64,000 nucleotides of DNA from Amoebidium appalachense (GCA_963693365.1 CAVNZM010000004.1:10134468-10198467); one strand, 5' to 3'. Shown: positions 51,701 through 54,384, counted from the first letter of the stretch. Notes: generated by a model from the letters alone, not told the origin. Translations and numbers: made by a program.

Positions 51701-54384
51701 AACTCATACCTTGTGTCGAGGACGGCATTCTAACCCATCCCCCCCCCCCCCCCTCCTTCCTAGAAGCCCCGTCTCCTGAGTTCCTATCTTTATTTTTCTT
51801 GCTTCTGCTTACTGCTGCAACTTTAACCCCCGGCCTTTCCCACTGCCCTTCCCTGCATAAGCAACCTGCTCGTCTCTGATCAAGACGGGTGACCTACCCA
51901 TGTTCAAGTGAAACAGTATCTGAGTTGGGTTTCGTTAACGAGGGGAATAGGTCGAAACTCGGGTACTGTGGATGACGTGGGCCCCCCTGAGGATGGGCTC
52001 TGCTTATTATGCATACTCTTTATGTATAGCTTGCATTCTGCATCGTGTTATCCGTTTGTTCTTGTGTACTTCGTACTTTTTGACGCATTCAAACCCCCCC
52101 CCCCCCCCCCTCTACCTCCCCCTCCCCCCCCCCCCCCCTCCTCTCTCTATCTCTTTCTCTCTCTCCCCCCCCCCCCCCCCCTTTCTCCCTCCCTGCCTCT
52201 CACCTCTCCTCGCCTTCTCGACACTTTCCGAGCAGGAGGTTGCAGCCATTGCACGCAGGCACCCCAACCTGATTGTGATGTCAGATGAGGTGTATGAGTT
52301 TGCGGTGTACGATGGGCTCAAACATGAGCGCCTAGCCACCCTACCAGACATGTACGAGAAGACCATCACCCTGTACAGCGCAGGCAAGACATTCTCTGCT
52401 ACCGGCTGGCGTGTGGGCTACTCCATAGCACCCCCTGCCCTGTCAAAGCCCCTGCTTGCTGCCCATGCGGCTGTGAACTTCTGTGCCCCTGTGCCTTTGG
52501 AGGTTGGCGTTGCTGGGGCCTTCAGGGCGTGCTTGAAGAACAACTACTATGAGGTGCTTGCGTGTGTGTGTGTGTGTGCGTGTGCGTGTGTGTGTTGGGG
52601 GGTGGGGGGATTAGGAGGGTGGGCTGGTGGGGTTGTTTTTCTGAGGGCAAGAAGGGGAGGGAGAGGGAAGGATGGAGGGAGGTGGAGCATGGAACATGGG
52701 CAGGCATTTGGTCCGCGAGGAAGCTGGGGGGGGGGAGAGGGGGGGGGGGGGGGGGGGGGGGGACTGTGCACAATGCGTACACTAATTGGGAGATGTTGGT
52801 AAACCTCGTGCAATGGTGGGCAAAATGATGGGTGATCTTATTCTGGTGTTTGGATTCGTCGACCTTTCCCCCCCCCCCCCCCCCCCCCCCCCCCCCCCTT
52901 TTGCCCCAAAACACACGAAAAAAAGACAAAAAAGTGTAACGCCACATACCGTTAAATGCACGAAATCACCAAGCGAATGCCCTCTCATTCTACTCCCCCC
53001 CCCTCCCCCCCCCCCTCCCCCCCCCCCCTCCCCGCCGGCCCACCCGCCCCCCCCCCCCCCCCCCTGTCGGCCCACCCGGCCCACCCACCCACCCACCCAT
53101 CTACCTCCCCATGCCCCATTGCCATAGACCTGTCATCACCCTGTTTCTCGTTTGCCGCACTCACCCCCGACACTTTCACCTTGCTAAATGCGCCATGTGC
53201 AGACCTACCCCAGCATGCTGCAGGAGAAGAGAGACCGCCTAGTGCGTGATCTGAGGGAGGCAGGGCTGCAACCCATTGTGCCCCAGGGTGGATATTTCAC
53301 CATGGCAGACACGTCATCGATCACTCAGGTGCCTGCTGAGCATGATGACAACGACCCCAGCAAGTACGTCAAAACCCCCCCAAAAATGATGGAAATGGAA
53401 AGTGATGTGTGTGTTTGCGGTGATAAATTCTGGTTGATAGTGTGTGATGCATGTGCATTCACTTGTGTTTATACACGATATGTAAAAGTACACGATTGCA
53501 TACCCACGTAGCGCATGCAACTTATAAATATGCAGTAATTACCATATATGGGCAATGGTTGGCATGGTGCAGTAGTGGCTACTGATTGCATGGGTACACA
53601 TTTGCGCAAGCACATACTCACACATATGCACATACACATGCACCATGTGCACACGTGTGCGTACGCGGAGCCTGCATATGGCTATATTTGGTGATTCTTG
53701 GATCACCACCGATCGGGCTCTTTTTTCTGTGTCCTGACATTTGGAAGTAGGGTCTCTGATGTCGTAGGGATGACTGTGGTTGTGGTGGACGAAAAGTTTT
53801 GGCATGGTGGTTGTGGGTATGATGATGATGCGCATGTTCTGTGTGTGTGGGCGGGTTCAGGGCATCGGCTTTTTGTTCTCTCACGGCACAGGTACCACAA
53901 GCCGTCGCTACCCTCCCCCCCCCCCCCCCCCCCCCTCGCCCTCGTCATTGTCCAACCTTCTAATGCATACATGACCCCCCCCCCCCCCCCCCCCCCGACA
54001 AACACACATAGCACACATGTAACACGCACTCATACACACACACGCGCGCGCGCTGTAACACACACACACACACACACACACAGATACACACACACGACAT
54101 ACAAGCAAACACACACGTGCGCACGAACACACACACACAACACACACACACACACGTACACGTGCAGGGTGCTTGAGCAGCGCCGTGACTACCGAGTAGC
54201 CCGCTGGCTGACCACCGACATCAAGCTAACGGGCATTCCCCCTAGCGGCTTCTTCATGCCGCCCAATAGGCAGGAGGCAAACCACCTCATTCGATTCTGC
54301 CACACTAAGGATGATGCTACATTGACTGCCGCCGCACAAAAACTGAAGAATCTGGCCAATCATGGAAAGGCTGCTGCTGCCTAA
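45746..54384 (+). CDS. PLP-dependent class I/II aminotransferase (kynurenine aminotransferase / glutamine transaminase K-like), probable mitochondrial presequence; 7 exons (45746-45932, 47596-47670, 49247-49438, 50671-50841, 52236-52553, 53203-53363, 54168-54384)
   Basis: AVNLGQG, EPYFDAY, INTPHNPMGKV, MSDEVYE, YSAGKTFSATGWRVGY (PLP Lys), PQGGYF, IRFC. Exon 1 has one extra base near 45914-45920. Confidence 0.9.
46145..46670. repeat. (CT)n microsatellite in aminotransferase intron 1
   Basis: Visible directly. Confidence 0.9.
50136..50236 (+). mobile_element. Diverged 3'-terminal fragment of the (C)n-associated element
   Basis: AGGATGGGCTCCGCTTATTGTGCATGCTCTTTGTGT...CGCATTCTTA(C)n aligns by eye with 51990-52093. 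Confidence 0.65.
51756..52093 (+). mobile_element. (C)n-associated element, subfamily A (aminotransferase intron 4)
   Basis: Reverse complement of 42213-42552; C-runs on both sides; ends ...GACGCATTCAAA(C)17. Confidence 0.88.

What the first reader, a model, noticed from the sequence alone, without database searches (positions are those of the whole stretch)
51855..52010. Candidate re-wired (pseudoknotted) hammerhead-like ribozyme in the repeat's 3' region, with covariation between two subfamilies
Seen: in element-sense orientation both subfamilies carry every hammerhead core piece. Subfamily A (this copy): stem III GUAUCUGAG-U (51916-51925) pairs with A-CUCGGGUAC after GAA (GAAA at 51954-51957); triplet GUU, putative cut after 51926; GGG (51927-29) can pair with CCC directly before CUGAGGA (51987-93); UAGGUC directly before GAAA pairs with upstream GACCUA (51891-96), giving the canonical G-C pair next to GAAA. 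Subfamily B (reverse complement of ~25446-25605) changes these in compensating fashion: stem III GUCUGAG/CUCAGAC, stem I GGAG/CUCC, stem II GACCC/GGGUC. The framing stems also hold (AUAAGCA/UGCUUAU; CCCAUGU/ACGUGGG vs CCCAAGU/ACUUGGG), while the loops diverge. Known: type I/II/III hammerheads are circular permutations of [NUH]-[CUGANGA]-[GAAA]. Here the order is [NUH]-[GAAA]-[CUGANGA], with A9 and G10.1 not contiguous, which needs pseudoknots and would be missed by standard descriptors. Inference: a new hammerhead topology, or a non-catalytic RT-recognition fold derived from one. Caveats: GUU is a weak triplet and stem I is only 3-4 bp.
Basis: partly seen in the sequence, partly recalled or inferred. 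Interest (0 to 1): 0.93.

Follow-up and report, generated by a model that had tools for sequence, protein, structure and literature searches.

The report
Split-core hammerhead in Penelope-type repeat
A jumping repeat in a protist genome carries every part of a hammerhead self-cutting RNA in a rearranged and interrupted order, an arrangement also present in animal Naiad retrotransposons that were reported to lack standard hammerheads, so it is likely a new working form of this ribozyme, although cutting is untested.

Summary
Confirmed and extended. Six of six full copies of a repeat in the window (two subfamilies) hold the complete hammerhead core in the order cut site, GAAA, CUGANGA; the stem II partner lies upstream of all three. 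Stems I, II, III and a helix joining I and II each show one compensatory change; shuffles almost never give this. The order itself is published (type SGC, Eckert 2023), so that part is not new. That paper assumes CUGANGA and stem II cannot be separated; here a closing helix and a hairpin sit between A9 and G10.1. Read by eye in a published supplement, 8 of 54 Naiad retrotransposon consensus sequences from five animal phyla show this same split form with unrelated stem sequences, and 8 nematode Naiads show the unsplit CSG form, although the paper reports no canonical hammerheads in Naiads. The repeat looks like a non-autonomous Penelope-like element (5' truncation, poly-C flanks, 452-bp partial tandem); no partner reverse transcriptase was found. 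Cleavage is untested and no raw reads were available. The scan had not noted this on other DNA.

The parts
51756..52094 (+). Copy A1 of the repeat, 5'-truncated, poly-C on both sides, in sense orientation in an intron of an aminotransferase gene
   Evidence: flanking exons 50659-50841 and 52233-52556 by tblastn of P0001
51857..51867 (+). 5' strands of closing helix P0 (51857-63 and 51865-67)
   Evidence: pairs with 52001-07 and 51995-97; invariant in the window
51868..51890 (+). Hairpin P4 (8 bp) ending directly before G10.1
   Evidence: broken at one pair each in copies A2 and A3
51891..51896 (+). Stem II 5' strand (G10.1 = 51891), detached from CUGANGA
   Evidence: Rfam Hammerhead_1 aligns the same pairing as its helix II at a non-significant E 2.7
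51897..51903 (+). 5' strand of the frame helix that links stems I and II (partner 51975-81)
   Evidence: one compensatory change
51913..51929 (+). Block S: stem III 5' strand, GUU triplet, predicted cut after 51926, stem I 5' strand GGG
   Evidence: the cut is inferred by analogy
51930..51947 (+). Variable 18-nt linker (small hairpin) between stem I and stem II strands
51948..51969 (+). Block G: stem II 3' strand, GAAA (51954-57), stem III 3' strand
51975..51993 (+). Frame helix 3' strand, stem I 3' strand (51984-86) and CUGAGGA (51987-93)
51994..52007 (+). 3' strands of closing helix P0, directly after A9
42212..42863 (-). Copy A2, longest A copy (about 650 bp); predicted cut after 42381
22221..22489 (-). 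Copy A3; predicted cut after 22389
25325..26305 (-). Subfamily B partial tandem, 452-bp unit x 2.2, two full motifs (predicted cuts after 25984 and 25532)
   Evidence: head-to-tail joint in 4 of 4 runs laid
34299..34561 (-). Copy B3, truncated inside P0; predicted cut after 34499
33361..33417 (-). 3'-end fragment of subfamily A, no core
50136..50236 (+). Diverged 3' fragment starting inside the CUGANGA position
30842..30943 (-). Diverged 3' fragment, core word altered at C3; 3' boundary set by eye

Best explanation
The 3' region of this repeat holds a complete hammerhead core in a rearranged, split order and likely folds into a self-cleaving ribozyme predicted to cut after 51926, carried by what is likely a non-autonomous Penelope-like retroelement. 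Shown in the sequence: the 5'-3' order P0 - hairpin P4 - stem II 5' - frame - stem III/GUU/stem I - stem II/GAAA/stem III - frame - stem I/CUGANGA - P0. Inferred fold: P0, P4, frame and stem III form a nested scaffold; stems I and II then close as two pseudoknots; the frame helix plays the part of the stem I-II contact; P0 and P4 would stack end to end, so that A9 (followed by P0) and G10.1 (preceded by P4) stay neighbours, as at a four-way strand exchange, and the usual active site forms. Joining A9 to G10.1 on paper gives exactly the type CSG hammerhead, so this is a CSG/SGC-class ribozyme opened inside block C. Inferred role: it would cut tandem or read-through transcripts into unit-length RNA, possibly ligated to circles and possibly needing the element's protein, which a Penelope-type reverse transcriptase copies from the fixed 3' end about 170-200 nt downstream into poly-C targets, giving 5'-truncated and partial-tandem insertions.
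For: All core letters and anchored pairs in 6 of 6 full copies; shuffle and unrelated-locus controls; one compensatory change in each of stems I, II, III and frame, no broken cell in these four helices. Nested folding already gives P0, P4, frame and III and leaves the stem II 5' strand mostly unpaired; freeing the core costs 5.7 (A) and 10.5 (B) kcal/mol against about 18-19 kcal/mol of stacking in stems I plus II, before loop penalties. Frequent variants among other genomic copies of B fall at 5 places in the motif, none in the core or stems I-III. Independent lineages, read by eye in File S5 of PMC8557442: the same split order with P0 and a hairpin flanking A9 and G10.1 in Naiads of Acropora (3), Octopus (2), an acanthocephalan (assigned to Naiad_Plae by file position), the clam shrimp Eulimnadia and the ctenophore Beroe; stem II pairs are different each time (GGCUCC/GGAGCC, GACACC/GGUGUC, GGCCCC/GGGGCC, GACGCC/GGCGUC, GGCCCA/UGGGCC), the cut base is A or C, never G, and the hairpin base GCUC..GGGU is shared by the window, Acropora and Beroe. 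Eight nematode Naiads carry intact CSG with the same frame helix. SGC and CSG RNAs cleave in vitro. Element features: C-run of 6 or more within 25 nt on the 5' side of 7 of 8 insertions and on the 3' side of 7 of 8, background about 6%; (C)n bias, 5' truncation and partial tandems are described for Chlamys/Naiad elements.
Against: No cleavage data; only contigs, no raw reads, were available. 0 of 8 insertions begin at the predicted cut site. Stem I is 3 bp in A, 4 bp in B (2 bp in Beroe), and in plain folding CUGAGGA and the stem I 3' strand are largely paired in a competing hairpin. There is a U-U mismatch next to A9. One abundant, 5'-truncated A-type contig breaks the frame helix. The Acropora acuminata consensus has one mismatch each in stems I and II. 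A1 sits in sense in an intron of a gene with a full-length predicted protein, which a fast ribozyme could harm. A related Penelope hammerhead needed protein to cut, was dispensable for insertion in vitro, and no reads ended at its cut site (PMC11167929). No reverse transcriptase in the window and no hit for the 53-codon frame upstream in A2, so the mobilising partner is unproven; the fold matches Naiads while the poly-C target matches Chlamys, where I saw the split form in 0 of 22 3' ends viewed. The Naiad comparison is by eye, not a computed alignment.
Confidence: 0.74

Rival explanations
1. The fold is real and derived from a hammerhead, but in this organism it does not cut on its own; it serves as the recognition or packaging structure for the element's reverse transcriptase.
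For: P0 and P4 are the most sequence-conserved parts between subfamilies, as a protein site would be; short stem I and a competing hairpin; no insertion starts at the cut; a Penelope hammerhead was dispensable in vitro.
Against: All catalytic letters are kept in both subfamilies and in Naiads of five phyla while stems diverge, and only the positions free in catalysis (N7, H17) vary; two diverged fragments and one A fragment were inserted without the core, but that says nothing on the template RNA.
Confidence: 0.15
2. It is an ordinary type SGC hammerhead with one extra U after A9: G51995 and G51996 pair with C51953 and U51952 as a 2-bp stem II, and the upstream GACC strand is incidental.
For: An extra base at this step is known in Penelope hammerheads and is allowed in one of Eckert's descriptors; the octopus Naiads allow the same 2-bp reading.
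Against: Only 2 bp, failing at the third; the upstream strand gives 5-6 bp with a compensatory change; the GG is used in P0; in Acropora, the acanthocephalan, Eulimnadia and Beroe the bases after A9 cannot give a G10.1-C11.1 pair.
Confidence: 0.07
3. The motifs and pairings are a chance pattern in a structured repeat.
For: Loose settings are met by about 2.5% of shuffles once the core words are given; folding z-score of A is only -1.6; only two subfamilies.
Against: Observed stem lengths in 2-3 of 20000 shuffles; four compensatory changes; same architecture in unrelated animal elements.
Confidence: 0.02

Closest known systems
Type SGC hammerhead (HRIMA-1 and variants; Eckert et al. 2023, PMC10085705)
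   Same: Order cut site - GAAA - CUGANGA; stems I and II as pseudoknots; a helix linking stems I and II; full core.
   Different: In SGC the stem II 5' strand directly follows CUGANGA; here it lies upstream of everything, with P0 and hairpin P4 between A9 and G10.1. Linker I-to-II is 18-22 nt with a hairpin, not about 3 nt. SGC came from metatranscriptomes, not from a eukaryotic genomic repeat.
Type CSG hammerhead (two metagenome sequences in the same paper; by my reading also eight nematode Naiads)
   Same: Same cyclic order of strands and the same frame helix; joining A9 to G10.1 converts this motif into CSG.
   Different: CSG keeps block C whole and has its ends elsewhere; no P0 or P4.
Naiad/Chlamys Penelope-like elements and their non-autonomous members such as MRC1 (Craig et al. 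2021, PMC8557442)
   Same: 5' truncation, partial head-to-tail tandems, (C)n target bias (Chlamys), no canonical hammerhead; the same split motif near the 3' end of 8 of 54 Naiad consensus sequences.
   Different: No reading frame or partner shown here; host is a protist whose lineage I did not determine; motif not seen in 22 Chlamys ends viewed.
Non-LTR retrozymes and type I hammerheads of Penelope pLTRs (PMC4209133; bioRxiv 10.64898/2026.07.22.740005)
   Same: Short non-coding tandem unit with one hammerhead per unit, near the 3' end of a Penelope-type insertion.
   Different: Those are type I, often minimal and dimer-dependent; this one has a long stem III and is non-circularly permuted and split. 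Circular RNA is not shown.

Membership tests
Hammerhead ribozyme (any type) | C3-A9 CUGANGA, G12-A15.1 GAAA, U16.1-H17 | tested here: met
   6 of 6 full copies
Hammerhead ribozyme (any type) | Stems I, II, III abut the core, with A15.1-U16.1 and G10.1-C11.1 | tested here: met
   stem I only 3-4 bp
Hammerhead ribozyme (any type) | A9 joined to G10.1 with at most one or two extra bases | tested here: not met
   0 hits with joined block C and stem II of 4 bp or more; rule stated in PMC10085705
Hammerhead ribozyme (any type) | Contact between stems I and II | tested here: inconclusive
   frame helix placed to do this, one compensatory change; role inferred
Hammerhead ribozyme (any type) | Self-cleavage 3' of H17 | not testable with these tools
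   only contigs available
Types I, II, III | Circular order C-G-S, three-way junction without pseudoknot | tested here: not met
   order is S-G-C; no Rfam match at gathering score, best E 2.7 on a part
Type SGC (Eckert 2023) | Block order S, G, C | tested here: met
Type SGC (Eckert 2023) | Uninterrupted block C | tested here: not met
Non-autonomous Naiad/Chlamys-type PLE | Fixed 3' end with variable 5' truncation | tested here: met
   depth falls towards the 5' part of the B unit
Non-autonomous Naiad/Chlamys-type PLE | Partial head-to-tail tandem insertions | tested here: met
   452 bp x 2.2; joint in 4 of 4 runs; not seen for subfamily A
Non-autonomous Naiad/Chlamys-type PLE | Microsatellite target bias, (C)n | tested here: met
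   7 of 8 on each side against about 6% background
Non-autonomous Naiad/Chlamys-type PLE | 3' similarity to an autonomous element encoding GIY-YIG plus RT | tested here: inconclusive
   no RT motifs in the window, no hit, no genome held
Non-LTR retrozyme | Type I hammerhead in each tandem unit | tested here: not met
   one motif per unit, but not type I (definition)
Non-LTR retrozyme | Unit-length circular RNA | not testable with these tools
   a go-back joint cannot tell a circle from a genomic tandem

The most novel reading that the evidence does not exclude
A catalytically active hammerhead architecture outside all six block permutations: the conserved core strand is broken between A9 and G10.1 and bridged by a four-way helical junction. 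It is the hidden ribozyme of the Naiad clade of Penelope-like elements (split form in at least five animal phyla and this protist, intact CSG form in nematodes), so Naiads do not lack hammerheads, non-circularly permuted hammerheads are abundant in eukaryotic genomes, and the two forms record how one topology turns into another.
Probability: 0.65. Interest if true: 0.88.

Novelty: new variant of a known kind. Interest (0 to 1): 0.8.

Why it matters
It would overturn two published working assumptions at once: that the CUGANGA-stem II block of a hammerhead cannot be interrupted (the basis of the six-permutation scheme and its search descriptors), and that Naiad elements proliferate without canonical hammerheads, leaving unexplained 'half cores'. 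It would move non-circularly permuted hammerheads from rare metatranscriptome RNAs to high-copy eukaryotic retroelements, raise the CSG type from two sequences to a family, and give a new engineering site (A9/G10.1) in the most used ribozyme. A 150-nt transcript tests it in a day.

Tried and rejected
No genome is held for the window, so copies outside it could not be aligned. Rfam: only two U3 snoRNAs at gathering score; no significant match over A1 or the B tandem. Viral-contig scan for the two core words: 120 loci read of about 180, at chance level, 2 passing the loosest descriptor. Metagenome scan: 102 loci, no relative by BLAST or context, 2 passing the descriptor by chance. Search for the partner: no RT motif in six frames, no PLE family among 18 of 138 open frames scanned in Pfam, no homologue of the 53-codon frame in A2. 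No long frame in the B unit read as a circle (at most 92 codons). Host lineage: the aminotransferase exon matches one EukProt protein at 100% and nothing else above 63% over the full query, so only 'protist' can be said. A canonical reading across two tandem units fails, since A9 is still about 350 nt from the next G10.1. A C/D-box or kink-turn reading of UGAUGA/CUGA words was considered from recall and dropped: the word is not kept in subfamily A and the positions are paired in frame and stem III. Earlier scan notes: nothing by sequence or place; one unrelated coral tRNA repeat by words.

Full report
Observation. The window is eukaryotic, with intron-rich genes; the exon next to the finding matches one EukProt protein at 100% and no other above 63% over the full query, so the host is a protist of undetermined lineage. 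The finding lies in copy A1 (51756-52094) of a repeat that sits in sense orientation in an intron of this aminotransferase gene. BLAST within the window gives three A copies, a B tandem of 452 bp x 2.2, one more B copy and three short 3' fragments. A descriptor for a split core (stem I>=3, II>=4, III>=4) hits six places in the window, the six full copies, and none when CUGANGA must be joined to stem II.

Chance. Sixty shuffled windows gave no hit; with the two core words fixed and the rest of the element shuffled, the loosest setting was met in 524 and 507 of 20000 shuffles, and I>=3, II>=5, III>=9 in 3 and 2 of 20000. Unrelated loci holding both core words passed I>=3, II>=5, III>=4 in 0 of 120 and 2 of 102. 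On the six-copy alignment, 99% of 195 cells pair, four pairs change on both sides (stems I, II, III, frame), four on one side, and the only two unpaired cells are in hairpin P4. This is two subfamilies, so four events; the count of doubly changed pairs alone was reached by 118 of 500 shuffles, and the structure came from the same sequences. Among other genomic copies seen as contigs, B variants at 1% or more fall at five places of the motif, none in the core or stems I-III; A variants at 5% or more include two that turn a pair into G-U, and one abundant 5'-truncated contig that breaks the frame helix.

Anatomy. From 5' to 3': closing helix P0 (51857-67), hairpin P4 (51868-90), stem II 5' strand (51891-96), frame helix (51897-903), stem III with GUU and stem I (51913-29), a variable linker, stem II with GAAA and stem III (51948-69), frame (51975-81), stem I with CUGAGGA (51984-93), P0 (51995-52007). 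Nested folding returns P0, P4, frame and stem III (z -1.6 and -3.1). Stems I and II are pseudoknots. Opening the core costs 5.7 and 10.5 kcal/mol; stacking in stems I and II gives about 18-19 before loop penalties; but in the plain ensemble CUGAGGA and the stem I 3' strand are largely caught in a competing hairpin. Rfam has no match at gathering score; at E 2.7, which is not significant, Hammerhead_1 aligns 51891-94 with 51950-53 as its helix II.

What is in print. Eckert et al. 2023 (PMC10085705; main text parts 1-6 of 8 and supplement passages read) divide the hammerhead into blocks S, G and C, show that types SGC and CSG occur and cleave, and state the assumption that blocks cannot be interrupted; the two CSG descriptors I saw require CUGAUGAG or CUGAUGAUG joined to stem II. 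So the order seen here is known; the split of block C is outside their scheme. Craig et al. 2021 (PMC8557442; passages) describe Naiad and Chlamys Penelope-like elements with 5' truncation, partial tandems and (C)n bias in Chlamys, report no canonical hammerheads in Naiads, and flag unexplained 'HHR_core' and 'HHR_half_core' cases. Passages of Perreault 2011, Cervera 2014, Forgia 2023, PMC13725137, PMC6155905 and the 2026 retrozyme preprint (part 1 of 5 and passages) mention single-base insertions, including an unpaired base at the 5' end of stem II, and unspecified 'additional helices', but I saw no helix insertion at A9/G10.1 and no permuted hammerhead in Naiads. Searches behind this. The library lacks most subscription papers, and I did not read Lunse 2017, Arkhipova 2017, Hammann 2012 or De la Pena and Flores 2001 (titles seen only); figures and most of Eckert's supplement were not seen.

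Independent lineages. I read the last 230-350 nt of all 54 Naiad consensus sequences and motif-search passages in the supplement of PMC8557442 by eye; nothing from it was entered into a tool, so these counts are not computed and are lower bounds. Eight show the split form: Acropora (3, one with two mismatches), Octopus (2), an acanthocephalan (assigned by file position), Eulimnadia and Beroe (stem I only 2 bp). In each, a helix starts at or within two bases of A9 and pairs upstream of a hairpin that ends directly before G10.1; stem II is 6 bp with different sequences; a frame helix links stems I and II; the cut base is A or C. The hairpin base GCUC..GGGU is the same in the window, Acropora and Beroe. 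Eight nematode Naiads (two Pristionchus, three Nippostrongylus, Haemonchus, Heligmosomoides, Ascaris) carry an intact CSG hammerhead with the same frame helix, one with GUU and one with an extra U after A9. One spider Naiad has S-G-C order with an unclear stem II. Several more hold CUGANGA in passages too short to parse. None of 22 of 49 Chlamys-sheet 3' ends viewed showed the split form. U at the cut position occurs in 10 of 26 Hydra-clade rows of File S2.

The element. A C-run of six or more lies within 25 nt of the 5' boundary in 7 of 8 insertions and of the 3' boundary in 7 of 8, against about 6% background; boundaries are from BLAST, one by eye. The 452-bp head-to-tail joint is in all four runs laid, and summed depth for both subfamilies is very high in X2, which is not a copy number. 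No reverse transcriptase was found. The element is therefore likely, not shown, to be a non-autonomous Penelope-like element; the fold points to Naiads, the target to Chlamys.

Mechanism. Shown: order, pairings, covariation, recurrence. Inferred from established hammerhead structure (recalled): G12, A13 and stem II form a continuous stack on one strand, so a break on the other strand between A9 and G10.1 can be bridged if P0 and P4 stack end to end as the second arm of a four-way junction; an extra base is already tolerated at this step. Inferred role, following the model in Cervera 2014: cutting tandem transcripts to unit length, perhaps circles, copied by the RT from a start downstream of the ribozyme. 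Against a simple version: no insertion begins at the cut (0 of 8), and a Penelope hammerhead studied in vitro needed protein and was dispensable for insertion (PMC11167929, passages). I put self-cleavage in this fold at 0.74, a non-cutting recognition fold at 0.15, a joined SGC with 2-bp stem II at 0.07, chance at 0.02.

Verdict. It works, most likely, like a CSG/SGC hammerhead but fails the membership test of every described type at the A9-G10.1 link. New variant of a known kind; interest 0.8, mainly because it ties a new core topology to an open gap in Naiad biology and is quick to test.

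Noticed in passing
File S5 of PMC8557442: Eight nematode Naiad consensus sequences carry intact type CSG hammerheads with a frame helix; CSG was known from two metagenome sequences. Read by eye.
   Followed up: partly
File S5 of PMC8557442: Bivalve and hemichordate Naiads share a different conserved G+C-rich motif of about 70-90 nt near the 3' end with no hammerhead core words seen; it could be another ribozyme or RT signal.
   Followed up: no
File S5 of PMC8557442: Spider Naiad_Smim has S-G-C order with 8-bp stems I and III and an unclear stem II; ostracod and other Naiads have CUGANGA after a C-rich strand but were not parsed.
   Followed up: no
window 29138-29652: Another poly-C-flanked repeat, 261 bp x 2; one unit shares the 9-mer GGGCUCUGC with the P0 3' strand of the A/B element, about 45 nt from its end.
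   Followed up: no
window 61873-62094 and 62862-63085 (+): Two U3 snoRNA genes in tandem, 97% alike.
   Followed up: no
window 31530-32188: 53-bp minisatellite, 12 copies, whose first unit begins at an exon edge of a gene on the minus strand.
   Followed up: no
runs X2, X22, X23 laid on 51756-52094 and 25436-25887: Loose ends show further subfamilies that keep the CUGAGGA-P0 segment or the P4 hairpin but differ in the middle; their full sequences were not retrievable.
   Followed up: no
L147, near 696-753 (minus strand): A metagenome hit that looks like tandem minimal type I hammerheads, unrelated to the split form.
   Followed up: no
window 488-2482 (+), 8339-9238 (-), 57690-58349 (-): Host genes: CotH kinase with lamin-tail domain, a sugar transporter, a tyrosinase exon.
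   Followed up: no
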